A stretch of 64,000 bases of DNA from Pachysolen tannophilus NRRL Y-2460 (lineage: Eukaryota): assembly GCA_001661245.1 (NCBI GenBank), contig KV454016.1:928268-992267 (forward strand), given 5' to 3'. The stretch's first letter is position 1. Each line of letters begins with the position of its first letter. Positions 3,449-63,452 of the stretch are shown in pieces. A model generated the notes under the pieces. It made no database searches, was not told the origin of the DNA, and was given only the letters and a program-made list of their open reading frames with translations. Made by a program: the position numbers and the translations under genes.

Positions 3449-4259
3449 AGGGCACATATGAAGTATAATAAGTGATAAAAGAGGTTTGAAAGATATTATA
3501 GCTTCAGATTTGTGAAAATATTTGCAGATTAAAGAATAACATCTACTACAGAACAAAATTCAAATTTGATCTGCAAACCTTTCTTTTTTTTTTTTTTTTT
3601 TATTTTGGTTTACTTTTTATTACAAGAGTTTCATTAGTAAAGTTAAAAAGCTTAAAGCAAAAAAGAGACTCAGCTTTAGTGACTACAATTAATCTTGGCC
3701 ATTAATTTAGATTTCACTTGCTCTGTTTTGAGCATATAAATGATATGGAATATATTATTTAATATGGTTTACAAACCAATATCGTTTCAGCCGCATGCAC
3801 GATTATGCATGCAAGAAAGACAAAAAATTCAAAAAATTCAAATCTTTCAATTCGAATACTTTGAAATCTTTAATACAAAAGATAGTTCGAATTCAATATT
3901 AAAACCATTAAAATCAATGAAATGATTATATATATATATATATGTATAAAGATATGTAAGTTTCGAAATGGAAAAAATTAAGAAGAAGAAGAAGAAAAAA
4001 AAAATACTTGAAAACAGTAAAACTTTTTCTTTTTATAAACAAGAAGCAACAAGGAAAATTAAAATGAACTCAACTCGCCGAATAGATTATGACGCTCTTC
4101 TATAATCTTTTTTAACTTTTAATTTTGTTGAACCAATTTGTGAATCGACATTTATATTTATTGAAATAAAACTTATTATCTTATTTATTGTCATTATTAC
4201 AGTTATCTTGAATTTATCTTGAATAGTTCTAAACGAACTAAAAAACATTTTCAGGGAAA

Positions 4260-5042
4260 ATGTTTTTATTTGCTTTTGGTGTAGCAGTTCTAATAGTGAG
4301 TGAAGTATGGGCTTATCCAATTAACAACAATATCACTTCTGATGTTATTACAATTAGTAAAAATGACAATATTTTCAATTATAATGGTTTTACGTATATT
4401 CAAGAAACAAATGAGGTTTGCGGCAAAGAGACATTTCTGTTTAATATTTCCGAACTAATTGATAAAGAGTCATTGCTATCTGCTTTAGGTAATGAAACAT
4501 TTATGGAAGCAGACGCAGATTTTTTATCGAGCATAGATACCAAGTATTGTGTAAGGCTTTTGAATAAACCTCAAAAAATTGTGAAAACAGACTTGAGTGC
4601 ACCAATTAGTTTATGTTTAAATTCAGAATTTGGCGATGGTGGTTCTATTGGTAAGTCAGTTAGTGTTTCCGTTTCTGTGGGAGGAGATTTGAGTTTTTCT
4701 ATGCATGAGTCCGCAATGCAAGCAATCACAATGACCTGGTCGATTTCTGCTAGTATTTCAAAAGCTTTCAAACTAGTTTATTCTTGTACTGCACCTGCTG
4801 GTGAAGTGGCACAATTGTGGGCTACACCTGTTGGTGGTGAGGTTGATTTTGAAACAAGGAAATATTATCAACTAAGACATGGTGGGAAAAGGCATTTCGT
4901 TAGTGATTGGACCAAGGTGAAGAATTATCATTTCCCAGTAAACGAATTTTCTCCAAGACTTGCTTGTAAGAGTGGACCAGCCACAAATTGTGAGCTTCCT
5001 CAAACAACAAACTTTGTATTTAAAAATAGCATTGAGAATTAA
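4260..5042 (+). CDS. Secreted Cys-containing protein of unknown function (260 aa)
   Basis: N-terminal hydrophobic signal peptide ending VWA|YP, several N-glycosylation sequons, 6 Cys and an alternating Ser/hydrophobic stretch. Confidence 0.75.
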   Translation: MFLFAFGVAVLIVSEVWAYPINNNITSDVITISKNDNIFNYNGFTYIQETNEVCGKETFLFNISELIDKESLLSALGNETFMEADADFLSSIDTKYCVRLLNKPQKIVKTDLSAPISLCLNSEFGDGGSIGKSVSVSVSVGGDLSFSMHESAMQAITMTWSISASISKAFKLVYSCTAPAGEVAQLWATPVGGEVDFETRKYYQLRHGGKRHFVSDWTKVKNYHFPVNEFSPRLACKSGPATNCELPQTTNFVFKNSIEN

Positions 5043-5373
5043 ACAAAAATTTCGTTAAATTAATATTATTTTATCACTTTCTTTCTATTACATTTTTACA
5101 ATTTTCAATTTTCAATTTTTAATATTTTTTATTCTTGAGCTGATAACAATACTTATATAATATAATACATATATGAAACCTATGGAAAAATCACTTTTTC
5201 ACCAAAAAAAAAAAAAAAAGCAAAAAAAAAAGAAGCAAAAAAAGAAAAGAAAAGAAACCGAAGTTTATAATAGTAAGCAATATGTCCTTAGAGCTTCAAA
5301 AGAGAGTTTCTAGAGAGTTTCAAGGGCAACTATTAATTTATTTATATTTTTTTTATCATTAATTATACATGTT

Positions 5374-5859
5374 CTATGTCCTCTTATCCCTTCTTCCTTT
5401 CTTCTGTACTAGTTGGAACCCATCGTCATCAATTATTGGAGCATTTCTTGCCTGGTGATCATGATCATCATCAAGATCCATTTCAACATCATCATGGAGT
5501 GTTTGCTCTTCTTCATCTTCGGCACTCTCATCACTATCATCGGGATTTTCAGGATCCTCTTGTATCTGAACCTGATAATGTGAACTTTCTTTTTTCTTCT
5601 GTCTTTCAAGCCATTTAGCGTACATACCATCTACTGTTTCAAATTGGCCCTGTGAAATTTCTTTATAAATTTTTAAAATTAAAACTGCCAATGGTAACGC
5701 ACTATCATCTTCAACTTGAACGTCAAACTCATCTTGCATAGCATATAACATCGTCTCTTCTATCAACTGGACATCAACAATTTTTTGCTCAAACAACTCA
5801 ACCACTATGGCAGTGATCCAATCTCTCTTATCTGCAGATTGAGGTCCTCCCCATTGGTT
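5374..5859 (-). CDS. TSR2: TSR2 (Rps26 escortin / pre-rRNA processing), C-terminal 161 codons; N-terminus displaced by inversion
   Basis: The minus frame reads NQWGGPQSADKRDWITAIVVELF...AMQDEFDVQVEDDSA...IDDDGFQLVQKKGRR, i.e. the Tsr2 WGG domain and acidic tail. There is no proper start on this strand. Confidence 0.93.
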   Translation of the reverse strand, partial: NQWGGPQSADKRDWITAIVVELFEQKIVDVQLIEETMLYAMQDEFDVQVEDDSALPLAVLILKIYKEISQGQFETVDGMYAKWLERQKKKESSHYQVQIQEDPENPDDSDESAEDEEEQTLHDDVEMDLDDDHDHQARNAPIIDDDGFQLVQKKGRRDKRT

Positions 5860-5903
5860 ATCTGTTCTGAATTCTGAGTGGCTCTATCTTTTGAACCAGA
5901 CAT
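5860..5903 (-). CDS. CNA1: Displaced first 14 2/3 codons of calcineurin A (MSGSKDRATQNSEQ-AT)
   Basis: ATG at 5903. Joining to +6430 gives ...[14 protein letters not shown] in frame, resembling the recalled S. cerevisiae Cmp2 start (RNTEQINAAIKIIENK). Confidence 0.85.
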
Positions 5904-6209
5904 CCTTCACTAAATATCACACACTAGACGTTATGTTCGTTCTCTCTACTGAACATCAAAAAAAAAAAAAAAAAAAATAACACCAATAGCAACACTAACA
6001 CCAAGCAGATCAAGATAGAAGATATATACTTATCTATATCTATCTATATCTATCAATATACAGATTTATAATACCCAGATAAAAATAATTAATACCTGTT
6101 TTCTCGTTATCTTCACCTTCTCCTTCCTGTTATTGCTCCAGGGCTTATAAAATAGAGAAAGTCTGTTGAGTTTTCCACGCACGACAAATGTTTTTGTCCC
6201 ATTTTTCAG

Positions 6210-6220
6210 AAAATTTTTCA
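6210..6220. promoter_or_regulatory. RRPE element upstream of the TSR2 ATG
   Basis: AAAATTTTTCA (= TGAAAAATTTT) about 65 bp before ATG 6283, typical of ribosome-biogenesis genes. Confidence 0.6.
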
Positions 6221-6282
6221 CTTTTTATAATTCATGAGGTTGAAGATTAGTTGGATTATAAGTTGTTTGTTGTTGGTTCGTG

Positions 6283-6429
6283 ATGAGTTCTATTGATGTG
6301 ACTGAGTTTGTGGAAGCAGGTAAGGATCAGGTTTCGCTTTTTTTCTCTGATTTGAAGCAACAGTCCAAGTTTGAGCTTGGGGTTTCGATGTGCATTTACC
6401 AATGGGATGCTTTAGAAATTGCAGTTCAA
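6283..6429 (+). CDS. TSR2: Displaced N-terminal 49 codons of TSR2
   Basis: The + strand reads [49 protein letters not shown] and then TGA. FELGVSM..Y.WDAL..AV is the Tsr2 N-terminal motif that directly precedes NQWGG. Confidence 0.93.
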
Positions 6430-8203
6430 TGATAATGCTTTAAAAAAAATAAAAAATAAGCAAGCATTTGCATCAACTAGGGATTATTCGATTTTTGTTA
6501 CCGAAGATGGGGAAGAAGTGTCTACTAAAGAGCGAATTGTAAAGACTGTTCCACCTGTGGCATCTAAGAAACCTAGTGAAGAAGAAGTTTTTGATTCAAA
6601 AACAGGTTTACCTAGACATGAATTTTTAAAAGAGCATTTTATTCTTGAAGGAAGATTACAGGAAGATCATGTTGTTAGGATCTTAGATATGGCAAGAGAT
6701 GTTTTAGCTAAGGAACCGAATTTATTAGATGTTCCTTCACCTGTAACTATATGTGGTGATATTCATGGACAATATTATGATTTGATGAAATTATTTGAAG
6801 TTGGTGGACACCCAACTAATACTTCATATTTGTTCTTGGGAGATTATGTGGATAGGGGTTCATTTTCAATTGAATGTTTACTTTATCTTTATTCGTTGAA
6901 GTTAAATTATCCAAATACTTTTTGGATGTTAAGAGGAAATCATGAATGTAAACATCTTACTGATTATTTTACTTTCAAGATGGAATGTCTTCATAAGTAT
7001 TCGATGAAAACATATAAAGCTGCTTTAGGAAGTTTTAATGCATTGCCGTTGGCTGCGATAATGAATAATCAATTTTTCTGTGTTCATGGTGGAATATCAC
7101 CAGAATTGAAAAGTTTGGATGATGTTAGAAATTTGAATAGATTTAAAGAACCTCCAACAAGAGGTTTAATGTGTGATTTATTATGGGCAGATCCAATTGA
7201 ATCTTATGATGAAGATGACGTTGATTCATTATTTTTACCAAACTCCGTTAGAGGATGTTCTTATGCTTTTACATATAAGGCCTCTTGTTCTTTCTTACAA
7301 AGAACTGGATTGCTTTCGATAATAAGAGCCCACGAAGCTCAGGATGCTGGATATAGAATGTATAAAAGAACCAAGACAATGGGGTTCCCTTCGTTATTAA
7401 CAATGTTCTCTGCTCCAAATTATCTTGATAGTTATAACAACAAAGCAGCAGTGTTAATATACGAAAATAACGTTATGAATATAAGGCAATTTAACGCTTC
7501 CCCACATCCATATTGGCTTCCAAATTTTATGGATGTGTTTACTTGGTCTTTACCTTTTGTTGGTGAAAAAGTTGTGGATATGTTGGTATCTATATTGAAT
7601 ATCTGTACACAAAAAGAACTTGATGAAGAAACTCCTTTAGCAAAAGAACCAGCAAACTCATTTGATGAAATATCTGTTGAATCGAATATAAATTCCAATA
7701 ATAATGGAACTGCAACTACAACAACAGCTGGCACGGAAACTACAGGATCTGCAACAGGTAGTTTTGATTTGAGCAAATTTATACTGTCTACAGGTAATTC
7801 TTCAGCAACTTCATCACTGGGATCCCAAATTAAAGATTCTGATTCTCTTGAACTGAAAAGAAATGTATTACGTAATAAGATCATGGCTATTGGAAGAGTT
7901 AGTAGAATGTATCAATTATTAAGAGAAGAAAGTGAAAAAGTTGAAAAATTAAGATCTTTAAGTGGTGGAAGAGTTTTACCAAAGGGAGTATTATTAAGTG
8001 GCTCTGACGGATTATCAAAGAAAATATCATCGTTTGATGAAGCTAGAAAACAAGATTTGAAAAATGAAGCATTACCACCAACTAGGGAAACTATAGAAAG
8101 AGAAAAGCAAGAAATGGAAGATGAAATTAAAAGAAGAGTTGCTGAACGGGTTAAAAGGGATGAAGGTCTTCAAAAATTGGCAAGAAGATTGTCTGATCGT
8201 TGA
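6430..8203 (+). CDS. CNA1: Calcineurin catalytic A subunit (PP2B; CNA1/CMP2 orthologue), body of gene
   Basis: PPP motifs GDIHGQ, GDYVDRG and RGNHE, the SAPNYLD loop, CnB-binding [12 protein letters not shown], calmodulin-binding [15 protein letters not shown] and autoinhibitory [17 protein letters not shown]. The true start lies inside the inverted segment. Confidence 0.97.
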
Positions 8204-8528
8204 TACCAACTTGTTTCTTTCAGTTTAACAAACAGATACTCTCGATATATATAGTATATTTATATAAATTATTATTCTACCAATTATCAATTTTACTTTA
8301 CATTTAATTTATTCACTGATAATAACAGTTCAAAACTTTAACGATATAACATCGTCTTTTTATTTTTGTAATATTATCATCATCATCATCATCATCATCT
8401 TCGTAATTCGTCAAGTGTACTAATATCAGAGGTTGAAAAATTTCTCAGCACGACTTTACATTTTTGTAATATCAAGACTTTACCATCTAATTTGAAACTA
8501 ATTTGTGGACTGAGCAAGAAGGTTATCA

Positions 8529-9446
8529 ATGTCGAGGAGTTCTTCTAGACTTGTGCTTTCTAGGCCTTCAATTTCTAATACTGAAGTAATCTCTGGGAAT
8601 GAGAATTTGAGTTCAGTAGAGTTTTCTGTTGGGGAACATTCAATATTGTACGCTGGTCATGACGGTATAATGATAAAAGATGATCACCAAAGGAATTTCA
8701 GGAAATTAATTTCTACTTTCATATCAGAATCTAAGGAAGAAGATTTTAGTGATGCTGAATTATATGTGTTGAACACAAGTTTTATAATTTGGTTAAATGA
8801 ACTTGCGAAAGGAATAGAATTTCCGTATCAAAATTTGATATTACATGCTTTACAAAAGGACGACGTTGGCAAGACATGGTTATATTTACAAATATCTTCT
8901 GATACTAACCTTGATGATAATGAGGAGGGGGATCTAGGAAATACAATTGAGCTTTCATTAGCTATTTGTGGAGAGGAAAAAACTAGAGAAAGAACTAGCA
9001 ATCCATTGTTAGAACAGGTAAATTCCAATTATAGAGATAATAATAAAGTGCTTGAGAACATTTACGAATCATTGACTACTTGCACATCATTTCATCTTGA
9101 TCCTGATTCTGAAGATGAAGAACAACAACAAGCAGTTGGAGGGCCAATTTTCATACTGCCAGATCAAAATTCTCCTACAAATGACGATGACGATGGAGAT
9201 GAGGATAACGATAACGATGAAGTTGTGCTGACAACTAATGAGAATAAAAGTGAGGATGATTTGACTGATGCCAGAGTTAATCATACATATCAAGAAACGA
9301 ATGAACATGAAAGTGCTACACTGACAGTAGATGTTGATTTGGTTTCCAGTAGTGGTGCAAGAACAAGAAAGGAAACAGAAAAGAAAAGAGAAAGCGTAAC
9401 GAATGGAAACGGTAAAGCAACGAGAAAGATTAGAAAATTGGAGTGA
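8529..9446 (+). CDS. LOT5: Lot5 / pICln (Voldacs) family protein
   Basis: LYVLNTSFIIW...GIEFPYQNLILHAL...LYLQ motif and acidic tail. Adjacent to SPE1, as in S. cerevisiae (YKL183W/YKL184W). Confidence 0.85.
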   Translation: MSRSSSRLVLSRPSISNTEVISGNENLSSVEFSVGEHSILYAGHDGIMIKDDHQRNFRKLISTFISESKEEDFSDAELYVLNTSFIIWLNELAKGIEFPYQNLILHALQKDDVGKTWLYLQISSDTNLDDNEEGDLGNTIELSLAICGEEKTRERTSNPLLEQVNSNYRDNNKVLENIYESLTTCTSFHLDPDSEDEEQQQAVGGPIFILPDQNSPTNDDDDGDEDNDNDEVVLTTNENKSEDDLTDARVNHTYQETNEHESATLTVDVDLVSSSGARTRKETEKKRESVTNGNGKATRKIRKLE

Positions 9447-16757: not shown

Positions 16758-17390
16758 ATGTCTGCAGCAAGTGATCCGAGTAAGTTTGAATCAAGTTTGA
16801 AAAGAAAAAAAAATTTTTCTTTTTTTTGTATAGTATAGTATAGTATAGTATACTAACATCACAATATAGCGAGTAACGTTGAACCATTTTTGAAAAAAAT
16901 TATATCGACTTTGGATAATCAATTCATAACGTCTCCGAGTCAGTACCAAAATAATGTGCAATTGTTTAAGGCATCGATCTTGCCTCAGTTGAAACAGCAG
17001 TCTGCTGTGATTATCAATGGGTCCCCATATGCTTCCAAGACGCAATTGCAAGAGATCTGGTCAAATTTACCAATATCACAACATCAACTAACATCTTATG
17101 ATACTCATCTTATACCTGGATCCGGTACATTTATCATTAGTTGTAGTTTAAAAGTGAGGTTTGATGAAAGTGGGAAGACAAGATTAGGTGAAAGTGCAGA
17201 ATTAGTACAGAATAATAGTCATACAGGTAATACAAATGTTCTGGTAGTAAAATTATGGAGTAGTTGGTACGGGGTGAATTTGAATTTAGTCGTTGATGAG
17301 ATAATAAGTAGTAACACAGATGTTGAATCGATTAATTCTTTTAATTATAGATTTACTTATAAGCCAGAAAATTCAATTATCAGTTTATAG
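16758..17390 (+). CDS. MTR2: mRNA export factor Mtr2 (180 aa); exons 16758-16779 and 16870-17390
   Basis: Intron 16780-16869 (GTAAGT...TACTAAC 16851...TAG) gives MSAASDPTSNVEPFLKKIISTLD. NTF2-like motifs HQLTSYDTHLIPG, KVRFDESG and SFNYRFTYKP. Confidence 0.92.
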
Positions 17391-29431: not shown

Positions 29432-31807
29432 TTAATTGTGTAAACGTTTTTCATAGGAGTACAAATTATGAACACCACCTTCGAATTGAGCAGAAGGAGT
29501 TCTGAATTCAAATCTAATCTCTCCATTACCAACACTTTCTCTTAAATCGTCTAAAGATCTAACACCAATATCTTGACAAGAATGTTGTAAACCATTGTAA
29601 AGATAAGGAATGAATTTTGTGATTGAACCTTTATCAATAACTGATCCAGAGACACCTTGAGCCACAAGAACTTTATCACCTTCAGAAAAATATCTTGAAG
29701 TTGACGCATTAGCATTTGTTGAGGTTTGTTGCATTGCTTCAATAGAACCCATACCTCTATAAGTTTTCAATCTTTTACCCTCACTAAAGAAATATTCACC
29801 TGGAGATTCAGTAGTACCAGCAAGCATACCACCCATCATACATGTTGAAGCACCTAAAGCTAAAGCCTTAACCATGTGACCAATGTTTTGAATACCACCA
29901 TCAGCCATACATGGAACTCCAAATTTGGAAGCAAACTCACAAACGTTATAAACAGCAGTACCTTGAGGTCTACCACACGCCATAACTTCTTGGGTAATAC
30001 AAATAGAACCAGAACCCATACCAATTCTTAAACCATCGACACCTGCCTCAATCAATGATGCAGTTTGTTCTCTAGTAACAACATTACCACCAATAACTTG
30101 TAAATCTGGGAAGGTAGCCTTAATCCATTTAACAATCGAGATTTGGAAAATAGAATTACCCTGAGAAGAATCGACTACTACAACATCTAAACCAGCATCT
30201 ACTAATTTAATTAATCTTTCTTTATCTTGTTCAAGAGTACCAATAGCAGCACCACAAAGTAATTGTTTTGATTGGAAAGATTTTGAAGCATTTGGATAAT
30301 CAAAATTTTTTTGTAAATCTGTTCTTGATAATAAAGAAACAAGGTTACCTTGTTTATCAACAATTGGTAATTTACCCTTTTTAGATTTAGTTAAAATTTC
30401 ATTACCATTGGTCAAATCAATACCATGTTCAGCAGTGACAAGATCAGTGGTCATAACTTCCGAAACTTTGGATTCACTGTTGTCATGGAATTGAATATCT
30501 CTTGATGTGACAATACCAACCAATTTACCACCAATTTTACCAGTTTCTAAAACAATTATATATATGTTAGTAATCAATCAGCCAATTAATTTTTTTTTTT
30601 TTNTTTTTCGTTGGTAANNNNNNNNNNNNNNNNNNNNNNNNNNNNNNNNNNNNNNNNNNNNNNNNNNNNNNNNNNNNNNNNNNNNNNNNNNNNNNNNNNN
30701 NNNNNNNNNNNNNNNNNNNNNNNNNNNNNNNNNNNNNNNNNNNNNNNNNNNNNNNNNNNNNNNNNNNNNNNNNNNNNNNNNNNNNNNNNNNNNNNNNNNN
30801 NNNNNNNNNNNNNNNNNNNNNNNNNNNNNNNNNNNNNNNNNNNNNNNNNNNNNNNNNNNNNNNNNNNNNNNNNNNNNNNNNNNNNNNNNNNNNNNNNNNN
30901 NNNNNNNNNNNNNNNNNNNNNNNNNNNNNNNNNNNNNNNNNNNNNNNNNNNNNNNNNNNNNNNNNNNNNNNNNNNNNNNNNNNNNNNNNNNNNNNNNNNN
31001 NNNNNNNNNNNNNNNNNNNNNNNNNNNNNNNNNNNNNNNNNNNNNNNNNNNNNNNNNNNNNNNNNNNNNNNNNNNNNNNNNNNNNNNNNNNNNNNNNNNN
31101 NTTTTTTTTTTTTTTGGGGAAAAAAAAAAAAAAAAAAAAAAAAAGGAAAAAAGTTATCTCATCTCATGTTTCTTTGTCATATAAAATCAGTTAAAAAGTT
31201 TCTCCACAAGATCGTTTGATCGCAATCGGTAGAACGAAAGTTATATATTTAAAAAAAATTGATCATCATTTCATAAACAACTAGAAACATGCAGATGACC
31301 AAAAGAAAAAAAAAAAAATTTTGTATTTTGAATTAACTTACCAGTCACTGGAAATGATGTAAACCCGAATTTTTGACCCATCAGTTTTACTTCCCCAACA
31401 GTTGCATCTGGACCAATGACAACAGGGTCATTAATAAACCCATTTTCATATTTTTTAACCTGTCTGACCATTTCTGCTTGTTCATCAGGAGTACAATTAT
31501 GATGAATAATACCGATACCACCCAACAATGCCATGTGGATGGCCATTGTTGATTCTGTAACAGTATCCATTGGTGAGGAAACAAATGGAGTTTTCAAAGT
31601 GATTTTCTTGGTCAATTTAGATTCCAAAGATACTTGCGAAGCAGGAAAATTAATCTTACCTGGTAATACCAAGAAATCATTGTATGTAAGACCACCTCTA
31701 GTCTTGGAGTCCATCAAACTCCTAACATCCAAACCATCTTTTTCCAGATATTCAGAAAGAAATTGGGTAGCCTTTGAGCAATTATTTGAATAATCCACTG
31801 GAGACAT
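29432..31807 (-). CDS. IMD4: IMP dehydrogenase (526 aa); exons 31807-31342 and 30546-29432
   Basis: Intron 31341-30547 (GTAAGT...TACTAAC...TAG) joins [15 protein letters not shown] in frame. Catalytic [12 protein letters not shown]. Hosts snR54, like S. cerevisiae IMD4. Confidence 0.96.
30618..31101. other. Assembly gap (484 N) inside the IMPDH intron
   Basis: Run of N flanked by homopolymers. Confidence 1.
31183..31273 (-). ncRNA. SNR54: Box C/D snoRNA snR54 orthologue (18S rRNA Am974 guide)
   Basis: Minus strand: box C ATGATGA (31269-31263), guide TAACTTTCGTTCT complementary to 18S AGAACGAAAGTTA, D' CCGA, then GATCAAACGATCTTGT and box D CTGA (31190-31187). Intronic location in IMPDH. Confidence 0.92.
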
Positions 31808-31926
31808 TGTTTGATACCACTAACTTAAGATTGAAAAAAAAAAAAAATTTTTAAAATAAAACTTTTTTTTTGGTCAAATTAAATAGAATTACGAAATCAG
31901 AATGAAAGTGAATTAAGCAACGTTAA

Positions 31927-61569: not shown

Positions 61570-62058
61570 CTACTAACCTCATTTAAAATATAATCATATA
61601 AATACTATTATTATGTATATTTAAGGGCGATTTATCTCTTCTTCTTTTTTAATATCAATTTTTCTCTTTTTCTCTTTTTCTCTCTTTCTTTTCTTAAAGG
61701 GCTTTTTGAACTTTTTTTTTATTTGAAAAAAAAAAAAAAATTTTTTAACTTTTTGTTACTATGGGTTTTTATGTAGCGAGCGGTATTATTCATTTTTTTC
61801 TTTCTTTCTTTTCTTTAATTTAATTTAATTAATTAATTTAATACTTTTATCTATTTTCTTTTTTCCTTTCTTTCTGGATAATTTTTTGGGTGTATGTTTA
61901 ATCATTATCGTCATTATTAGCATATATATTAATTACAAGTCAAAGTGTCTGCATCTGTTTTAAATAATATTGAAATTGAAACTTTCAAGTCCACTATTTT
62001 GAGGCCCACGACCCCAATCCCATTACTAAATTCATTATCATTTACAAATTCTAATCAA

Positions 62059-63452
62059 ATGAGAAAGTGTAAAGTATTTGTTGGTAATTCTCATCCTGAA
62101 TTGGGAAAATTGGTATGTGAGAGGTTAGGTATTGAACCTGCACCTTGTAGGTTGAAAAAATTTGCTAATGGGGAAACATCAGTTCAAATTGATGTTTCTG
62201 TGAGAGATGAAGATGTTTATATTATTCAAAGTAGTTCACCAGATATTAATGATCATATTATGGAACTTTTAATACTTATTAGTGCTTGTAAAGGTGGATC
62301 TGCTGCAAAAATTACAGCAGTAATTCCAATGTTTCCTTATTCTAAACAATCAAAAATGAAAAAACATAGAGGTGCTATAACTGCTAGAATGTTGGCAAAT
62401 TTATTAATTATGGCAGGGGCCGATCACGTGGTTTCGATGGATTTACATGCTTCTCAAATGCAAGGTTTTTTCTCAAAACCTGTTGATAATTTATATGGAG
62501 CACCAACTTTAGCAAAATGGTTGAAATTGAATTTACCAGATTATAAAAATGCAGTTGTTGTTTCTAAAAATCCAGGTGGAACAAAAAGAGTTACAGCTTT
62601 AGCAGATTCATTAAAGATAAATTTTGCTATGATTCATACTGATCGTAGAAGAGCAAAAGATGGTTATAAAATGAAAAAAATAGATTAAAATCTAATCAAC
62701 TGCAACAAAAAGTGGTGGTTGTAGATAATAAAGGAAGTTCAAAAACAGAAAATAGTGATGGTGAAGAAGAAGATGAAAATATTATTATAACAAATGAATT
62801 ACAAACTGCTAGAATTGTTAGAGGTCATGTTGTTGAAGATGATGATATCACTTTTGCTCCTTCACTGACTACATCTACAACTTCTTTAATTACTCATGGA
62901 ACTGATTCTGCATCAACATCAATTTCAGGAAATGGTATACATCCTTCAATACTGGGAAGAAAATTAAGTACAAATTTAAATGGTATTAGTTCAACAGATA
63001 TGTCAACTTTACATAATAGTAGCTCAAGTAATTTCCATGAATCAAATTCTGATGATGATGATGAACCAGATGTATTAGCTCAAGAAAAATTGATTACATT
63101 AGTTGGAGATGTTCAAAACAAACCAGCAATAATATTAGATGATATGGTTGATAAACCAACTTCTTTTATCTCTGCTGCAGAACATTTAAGATTAAACTGT
63201 GGTGCAAATGCAGTATATATCGTGGCTACTCATGGTGTATTTTCATCTGATTGTTTAGAGAGTTTGGAAAATTGTAAATTCATTGATAAAATTGTTGTTA
63301 CCAATACTTATCCTATTAGTAAAGAACAACGCGCAAAACTGAAAAAATTGGTTGTAATCGATGTTAGTCCAATTTTTGCAGAATGCATAAGAAGAGATCA
63401 TTTCGGAGAATCTATTAGTGTTTTGTTTAATTCATTAGCCGCCATTGAGTAA
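62059..63452 (+). CDS. PRS1: PRPP synthetase Prs1, interrupted by a 1-nt frameshift at about 62670-62686
   Basis: MRKCKVFVGNSHPELG...FAMIHTDRRR (to 62688) continues in the -1 frame through the NHR insert to LITLVGDV...IILDDMVD...AECIRRDHFGESISVLF. Near FAS1, as YKL181W/YKL182W are. Confidence 0.93.

What the first reader, a model, noticed from the sequence alone, without database searches (positions are those of the whole stretch)
5860..6429. A blunt 570-bp inversion swaps the 5' ends of TSR2 and calcineurin A, breaking both genes
Seen: the first 49 codons of TSR2 lie on + (6283-6429) and run into TGA in front of the calcineurin body. The first 14 2/3 codons of calcineurin lie on - (5903-5860), out of frame in front of the TSR2 body. 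Flipping the segment gives ...EIAVQ|NQWGG... (210 aa) and ...NSEQI|DNALKK... (605 aa) with no bases lost or gained. I found no in-frame inverted repeat at the ends; the shared GATAA would create a stop. Known: TSR2 and CNA1 are a divergent pair in S. cerevisiae. Inference: this is a misoriented piece in the assembly (most likely, since neither gene shows decay), a very recent strain-specific inversion, or, speculatively, an invertible bidirectional-promoter switch that turns both genes on or off together.
Basis: partly seen in the sequence, partly recalled or inferred. Interest (0 to 1): 0.88.

Follow-up and report, generated by a model that had tools for sequence, protein, structure and literature searches.

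The report
Misoriented 570-bp piece in a yeast assembly
A 570-base stretch between two back-to-back yeast genes is written backwards in the public genome record, so both genes look broken, but sequencing data from two samples of the yeast show them intact.

Summary
In the window, 5860-6429 is inverted relative to the arrangement that makes TSR2 (210 aa) and calcineurin A (605 aa) whole. Pfam's TSR2 profile is cut exactly between positions 20 and 21 at the junction. The window is Pachysolen tannophilus NRRL Y-2460, going by the source name of the near-identical protein P0121. The inversion is in the deposited assembly: the public model PACTADRAFT_51273 equals 6283-6330 plus 6416-8200 read with CUG=Ala. 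It is a TSR2/calcineurin chimera with an invented intron. The sequencing data disagree with the record. In 4 of 4 public runs laid (2 samples, 2 studies; depth 15-191), one contig joins 5859 to 6429 and another joins 5860 to 6430, on opposite strands with no ambiguous letters. No listed contig piece crosses the window's own junctions. The reads therefore support only the gene-restoring orientation. There are no inverted repeats at the ends and no sign of a second orientation. Verdict: an error in the deposited sequence, not biology. It is worth a curation note and little else. How the error arose is not known.

The parts
5860..6429 (.). The 570-bp segment that is reverse-complemented in the deposited sequence relative to the sequencing data
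   Evidence: joints 5859->6429 and 5860->6430, opposite strands, 'both' = 0, in 4 of 4 runs; flipping it restores both ORFs.
5377..5859 (-). TSR2 codons 50-210 (stop at 5376-5374). The body of the gene, left without start codon or promoter in the record.
   Evidence: PF10273 profile 21-78, E 2e-17; 141 proteins with E <= 0.001; the best 120 are listed, all with PF10273 precomputed, and the source-named ones read TSR2 or pre-rRNA-processing protein (43-55% identity)..
6283..6429 (+). TSR2 codons 1-49, lying on the wrong strand in the record and running into TGA at 6430-6432
   Evidence: (PF10273 profile 1-20 on residues 30-49)..
5860..5903 (-). Calcineurin A start codon plus 14 2/3 codons, lying on the wrong strand in the record
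   Evidence: the conserved N-terminal motif of yeast calcineurin A spans the junction with no gap column.
6430..8203 (+). Calcineurin A from the last base of codon 15 to codon 605, plus stop (8201-8203)
   Evidence: Metallophos, E 7e-40. (59-73% identity to calcineurin A of the other listed proteins, mostly yeasts; 99% to PACTADRAFT_51273).
5904..6282 (.). 379-bp intergenic region shared by the divergent pair (presumed bidirectional promoter). It holds an A20 run at 5958-5977.
   Evidence: the contigs of all four runs stop at 5948-6004.
6331..6415 (+). GT..AG 'intron' invented by the public gene model to link the TSR2 start to the calcineurin body
   Evidence: P0121 equals the table-26 translation of 6283-6330 + 6416-8200, letter for letter.

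Best explanation
[quoted passage not shown] It is not a property of the yeast. In the organism, TSR2 (210 aa, the chaperone of ribosomal protein eS26) and the calcineurin catalytic subunit (605 aa) are an intact, divergently transcribed pair separated by 379 bp. In the record, the piece that carries both 5' ends and the shared promoter is written as its reverse complement. Automatic annotation then produced a TSR2/calcineurin chimera with an invented intron, and no full-length TSR2. Shown: the flip restores both genes exactly, the public model is built on the flipped sequence, and contigs of four runs carry only the restoring orientation. Inferred: the error arose in assembly or finishing. The step that made it is not identified.
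For: (1): in 4 of 4 runs laid (X1, X2, X3 = one sample; X5 = a second sample and study), one contig reads 5266..5859 and then straight on into 6429..6005 on the other strand (depths 15/175/65/101). A second contig reads 5947..5860 and then 6430..7600 (depths 17/191/73/119). 'Both' = 0, so the joints are exact. No listed piece crosses 5859|5860 or 6429|6430 as written. (2): the orientation in the contigs is the one that makes both proteins full-length and colinear with 119 of 119 and 106 of 119 homologs. (3): the public protein PACTADRAFT_51273 is exactly 6283-6330 + 6416-8200 under CUG=Ala, so the inversion is in the deposited assembly and was not introduced later. (4) Neither gene shows decay: there are no stops or frameshifts in either piece. 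(5) Both junctions are perfectly reciprocal, with no base lost or gained. That is what a sequence-handling flip gives and is uncommon for break-and-rejoin events (inference). (6) Tsr2-deficient S. cerevisiae is 'severely impaired in growth' (PMC4161973, passage seen), so a real break would be costly. (7) The assembly is a short-read scaffold-level draft with contig N50 in the 10^4 bin (PMC13232491, passages).
Against: The runs are held as Logan contigs, not raw reads. Contigs drop rare variants, so a minority of molecules in the window's orientation cannot be excluded. Only two samples and two studies are represented. X5 is flagged as a possible source of this DNA, and I do not know which read set the deposited assembly was built from. 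The cause of the error is unexplained: there is no repeat at the ends, and both false junctions lie inside stretches that every run assembles as unique contigs. An assembler does not normally cut and rejoin at such places. That leaves some room for a real rearrangement in the DNA preparation that was assembled.
Confidence: 0.9

Rival explanations
1. A real, recent inversion that was private to the culture or DNA preparation used for the deposited assembly. It would have arisen from two double-strand breaks rejoined without loss, and would be absent from the samples behind runs X1-X5.
For: The false junctions lie in unique sequence, where assemblers rarely err. Both gene halves are undecayed, as expected for a very recent event. 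I could not establish which reads the assembly was built from.
Against: Four of 4 runs from 2 samples show only the other orientation, and one of them is flagged as a possible source of this DNA. The inversion would remove promoter and start codon from TSR2, whose loss severely impairs growth in S. cerevisiae (PMC4161973), and from calcineurin A. Exact reciprocity with zero bases lost or gained at both ends is unusual for end-joining (established knowledge, not tested here).
Confidence: 0.07
2. A reversible DNA switch. The promoter-bearing segment would flip in a fraction of cells, turning TSR2 and calcineurin A off together, and the assembly would have captured the 'off' state.
For: P. tannophilus does invert DNA in one known case, the 8-kb MAT region (PMC6692504, passages). 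Contigs cannot exclude a rare second orientation.
Against: The known yeast flip/flop regions are flanked by inverted repeats (2 kb in this species). Here the best inverted pairs around the segment are A/T-rich low-complexity runs, and the only match at the ends is 5 nt, offset from the breakpoints. The contigs run through both restoring joints without a break in all 4 runs, at depths up to 191. An 'off' state would also cut off the first 49 codons of a gene needed for normal growth.
Confidence: 0.02

Closest known systems
Local misorientation (inversion) errors in draft genome assemblies
   Same: The record disagrees with the sequencing data at two reciprocal junctions. Genes on both sides are intact once the piece is turned, and automatic annotation has papered over the break with a chimeric model.
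   Different: Typical misorientations sit between scaffold gaps or inverted repeats. This one lies inside a contig, has blunt ends in unique sequence, and has no N and no repeat at its ends. The nearest N run is at 30603-31101. Its cause is therefore not explained.
Flip/flop mating-type switching of P. tannophilus, Ogataea polymorpha and Komagataella phaffii
   Same: A chromosomal segment that can exist in two orientations and changes which genes are expressed. It is known in this very species (PMC6692504, passages).
   Different: Those regions are 8 kb to 138 kb and are flanked by long inverted repeats (2 kb in P. tannophilus). Both orientations are found in cultures or strains, and no coding sequence is cut. 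Here there is no inverted repeat, only one orientation in the data, and two ORFs are cut.
The divergent TSR2-CNA1 gene pair of S. cerevisiae (YLR435W / YLR433C; names and arrangement recalled, not from a call)
   Same: The restored arrangement is a head-to-head TSR2/calcineurin A pair. Linkage looks conserved. By my reading of the tables TSR2 hits and calcineurin hits share the same longest-contig length, 11 of them on contigs of 37 kb or less. Locus tags lie three apart in Debaryomyces fabryi and Australozyma saopauloensis.
   Different: Orientation in the relatives was not checked here. Equal contig lengths are only indirect evidence that the two genes share a contig.

Membership tests
TSR2 / WGG family (Pfam PF10273) | A match to the family profile over its whole length, including the invariant W-G-G motif | tested here: met
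   profile 1-20 on the + piece and 21-78 on the - body (E 0.0073 and 2e-17), together 78 of 80 positions. W52, G53 and G54 are identical in 119 of 119 homologs. The match is whole only after the flip.
TSR2 / WGG family (Pfam PF10273) | Full-length colinearity with orthologues (about 200-210 aa) | tested here: met
   flipped protein 210 aa against a homolog median of 207 aa. There is no gap over residues 40-59 in 119 of 119 rows, and the homologs start at a median of 0 query residues from the query's first residue.
Calcineurin A (PP2B catalytic subunit) | Metallophosphatase catalytic domain and high identity to named calcineurin A proteins | tested here: met
   PF00149 profile 2-189 of 191, E 7e-40; 59-73% identity to the other listed proteins, mostly over 94-100% of the query, many of them named calcineurin A / PP2B catalytic subunit by their sources.
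Calcineurin A (PP2B catalytic subunit) | Calcineurin B-binding, calmodulin-binding and autoinhibitory segments in the C-terminal part | not tested
   The C-terminal 200 residues align with yeast homologs over the full length (coverage), but I did not map the individual segments.
Invertible DNA switch (yeast flip/flop regions, bacterial invertons) | Inverted repeats at the two ends of the invertible segment | tested here: not met
   (seed 6, minimum 8 nt, 5300-7000): the 25 longest of 213 pairs are A/T-rich low-complexity matches, and none has one arm at each breakpoint; there is only a 5-nt TTATC/GATAA pair, offset from the breakpoints. 'both' = 0 at each joint.
Invertible DNA switch (yeast flip/flop regions, bacterial invertons) | Both orientations present in one population | tested here: not met
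   one orientation only in the contigs of 4 of 4 runs. A rare second orientation cannot be seen in contigs, so the test is limited to majority forms.
Assembly misorientation | Sequencing data contradict the record at both junctions and agree with each other on the alternative | tested here: met
   joints 5859/6429 and 5860/6430 on opposite strands in 4 of 4 runs (2 samples, 2 studies). No listed piece crosses the record's junctions.
Assembly misorientation | An identifiable cause (gap, repeat or patch boundary) at the ends of the piece | tested here: not met
   there is no repeat and no N at 5859/5860 or 6429/6430. The assembly's contig and patch history is not available here.

The most novel reading that the evidence does not exclude
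The segment is a repeat-less invertible bidirectional promoter that flips in a small fraction of P. tannophilus cells, switching TSR2 and calcineurin A off together. On this reading the deposited assembly happened to fix the rare 'off' form. Contig-level data cannot exclude a minority orientation.
Probability: 0.02. Interest if true: 0.85.

Novelty: not a real feature. Interest (0 to 1): 0.1.

Why it matters
The biological importance is small, because the yeast has two ordinary, intact housekeeping genes. The value is curatorial. A reference genome that is widely used because of its CUG=Ala genetic code carries a local error, and that error yields a chimeric public protein record (PACTADRAFT_51273, 611 aa, with the first 16 residues of Tsr2 on a calcineurin body). 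No full-length TSR2 appeared among the hits; the only near-identical entry is the 161-aa body. Orthology tables, gene-presence surveys and N-terminal analyses that use this proteome would inherit both faults. The case also shows that a blunt inversion with no repeat at its ends can sit inside a contig of a draft assembly. More of them may exist elsewhere in this genome.

Tried and rejected
- No whole genome is held for this window, so I could not look for further inversions of this kind outside the 64 kb.
- No RNA holder was listed among the runs, so nothing can be said about transcripts.
- Earlier notes of this scan: nothing was on record for this genome or for the words searched.
- Riley et al. 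2016, the genome paper, is not held under the DOI or the PMC id I tried. The assembler and finishing steps are therefore unknown to me, and a search for 'AllPathsLG' together with Pachysolen listed no paper holding that term.
- Open frames as a test of the breakpoints: rejected as insufficient, because 71 of 361 nearby breakpoint pairs also keep both frames open.
- The 5-nt TTATC/GATAA pair as a recombination site: rejected. Flipping between these copies puts a stop into TSR2 (read), and the contig joints lie elsewhere with zero ambiguous letters.
- Other genes split onto opposite strands: Pfam on 28 other long stop-to-stop ORFs, chosen by hand from the 65 of at least 90 aa, showed none.
- Literature: 0 papers hold YLR435W with YLR433C and 0 hold Pachysolen with TSR2. 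Five hold Pachysolen with 'misassembl', 4 of them listed, and none concerns this locus to judge by title and abstract start.
- The independent CAHV01 assembly named in PMC4937558 is in no collection that I could search.

Full report
**What is in the sequence.**
- On the + strand, 6283-6429 encodes 49 residues and then meets TGA at 6430-6432.
- On the - strand, 5903-5860 holds an ATG and 14 2/3 codons, then reads on out of frame into a stop.
- The - strand from 5859 down to 5377 is an open frame of 161 residues with no start of its own.
- The + strand from 6431 to 8200 is an open frame of 590 residues.
- Reverse-complementing 5860-6429 in a script gives two complete ORFs of 210 and 605 residues, with no base gained or lost.

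**What the two genes are.**
- Pfam places profile positions 1-20 of PF10273 (TSR2/WGG) on residues 30-49 of the + piece, and positions 21-78 on residues 1-57 of the - body. The profile is cut exactly at the junction.
- The other body has a full Metallophos domain (E 7e-40). It is 59-73% identical to calcineurin A of the other listed proteins, mostly yeasts.
- I aligned the flipped proteins with the listed hits, leaving out the window's own entries P0001 and P0121.
- The flipped TSR2 shows no gap across residues 40-59 in 119 of 119 rows, and the W-G-G residues are invariant.
- The flipped calcineurin shows no gap across residues 6-25 in 106 of 119 rows.
- Neither alignment needs an inserted column at the junction, and the homologs begin at the same place as the flipped proteins (median offset 0).
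- Frames alone would not have fixed the breakpoints. Of 361 breakpoint pairs within 9 nt, 71 keep both frames open. The exact position rests on homology and on the contigs described below.

**Where the window comes from, and whether the inversion is in the public record.**
- The best calcineurin hit, P0121, is named by its sources as PACTADRAFT_51273 of Pachysolen tannophilus NRRL Y-2460. It sits on a contig of 1,128,252 bases.
- P0121 has 611 residues and begins with the first 16 residues of the TSR2 piece.
- A script showed that P0121 equals, letter for letter, the translation of 6283-6330 joined to 6416-8200 under table 26 (CUG=Ala). The skipped part, 6331-6415, has GT..AG ends.
- Such a model is possible only if the TSR2 start lies upstream of the calcineurin body on the same strand. 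The inversion is therefore in the deposited assembly, and the annotation pipeline bridged the break with an invented intron.
- CUG=Ala in this yeast is described in PMC4937558 (abstract in the listing; passages). Three CTG codons lie in the calcineurin body.
- The assembly is a scaffold-level draft of 12.6 Mb with contig N50 in the 10^4 bin (PMC13232491, passages).

**What the sequencing data say.**
- Five public runs hold 0.97 of the 527 sampled words of window 4000-9000. X1-X4 are one sample and study. X5 is a second sample and study, and is flagged as a possible source of this DNA. None is on record as RNA.
- I laid X1, X2, X3 and X5, all held as Logan contigs, on 4800-7600.
- In 4 of 4 runs a contig of about 1,130 bases reads 5266..5859 and then, without any letter between, 6429..6005 on the other strand (depths 15, 175, 65, 101).
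- In 4 of 4 runs a second contig reads 5947..5860 and then 6430..7600 (depths 17, 191, 73, 119).
- Both joints are reported as 'opposite strands' with 0 letters that fit either side.
- No listed piece crosses 5859|5860 or 6429|6430 as they stand in the window.
- The contigs end only at the low-complexity stretches 5193-5265 and 5948-6004. The second of these includes the A20 run at 5958-5977.
- This is the gene-restoring orientation.

**Explanation.** The best reading (about 0.9) is that the organism has an intact, divergent TSR2/calcineurin A pair with a 379-bp shared upstream region. On this reading the deposited sequence carries that region, plus both 5' coding ends, as its reverse complement. 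Several things support it:
- the contigs;
- the complete absence of decay in either gene;
- the perfect reciprocity of the two junctions;
- the cost that a real break would have, since Tsr2-deficient S. cerevisiae is 'severely impaired in growth but still viable' (PMC4161973, passage).

The cause is not explained. There is no N and no repeat at the ends, and both false junctions lie inside stretches that every run assembles as unique sequence. This is not where assemblers usually go wrong. A finishing or patching step that inserted a piece in the wrong orientation would fit the blunt ends, but that is conjecture. I could not read the genome paper.

**Rivals.**
- A real inversion private to the DNA that was assembled (about 0.07) would explain the odd position of the junctions. 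It is opposed by two samples showing the other orientation, one of them flagged as a possible source, and by the expected fitness cost.
- A reversible switch (about 0.02) is the most novel reading left open. This species does invert its 8-kb MAT region, but that region is flanked by 2-kb inverted repeats (PMC6692504, passages).
- At this locus the inverted-repeat search shows only A/T-rich low-complexity pairs among its 25 longest. The 5-nt TTATC/GATAA pair at the ends is offset from the true breakpoints. The contigs pass through the restoring joints unbroken at depths up to 191. Contigs cannot exclude a rare second form.

**Context.**
- Linkage of the two genes looks conserved. By my reading of the tables TSR2 hits and calcineurin hits share the same longest-contig length, 11 of them on contigs of 37 kb or less. 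Locus tags lie three apart in two named yeasts. That the pair is divergent in S. cerevisiae is recalled, not tested; no paper held both systematic names.
- Elsewhere in the window, Pfam on 28 other long ORFs showed no second gene split onto opposite strands.
- No paper in the library links Pachysolen with TSR2. None of the 4 listed of the 5 papers that hold Pachysolen and 'misassembl' concerns this locus, to judge by title and abstract start.

**Verdict.** The feature belongs to the database record, not to the yeast. Interest is low (0.1). Its value is as a correction to a reference genome and to two protein records.

Noticed in passing
window 6283-6330 + 6416-8200 (+): The public protein PACTADRAFT_51273 (P0121, 611 aa) is a chimera. 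It joins the first 16 codons of TSR2, through an invented GT..AG intron at 6331-6415, to the calcineurin A body. The only near-identical TSR2 entry in the protein collection is the 161-aa body without a start (P0001).
   Followed up: yes
window 29435-31819 (-), N at 30603 and 30618-31101: An IMP dehydrogenase gene is interrupted by the scaffold gap. 31819..31274 holds Pfam IMPDH profile 1-85 and 30577..29435 holds profile 82-345 plus a CBS domain. Part of the CBS region probably lies in the gap.
   Followed up: partly
window 61933-63449 (+): A ribose-phosphate pyrophosphokinase gene changes frame near 62670-62685. ORF 61933-62685 has Pribosyltran_N and Pribosyl_synth profile 1-40, and ORF 62670-63449 has Pribosyl_synth 56-183. 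This is either an intron or a frameshift error; I did not resolve it.
   Followed up: no
window 16857-17387 (+): The Mtr2 ORF (Pfam profile 3-163 of 164) has no in-frame ATG. The start codon probably lies in a short upstream exon.
   Followed up: no
window 8529-9446 (+); protein P0213: The gene downstream of calcineurin A has a Voldacs domain (PF03517). A Candida verbasci record of 842 aa (P0213) carries Metallophos plus PF03517, so the same two neighbours seem to be fused into one model there. This suggests conserved gene order and another annotation merge.
   Followed up: no
protein P0199: A 590-aa protein is 62% identical to this yeast calcineurin A over 97% of its length, yet one source names it 'MAG: serine/threonine-protein phosphatase 2B catalytic subunit [Asgard group archaeon]'. 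It looks like fungal contamination in a metagenome-assembled genome.
   Followed up: no
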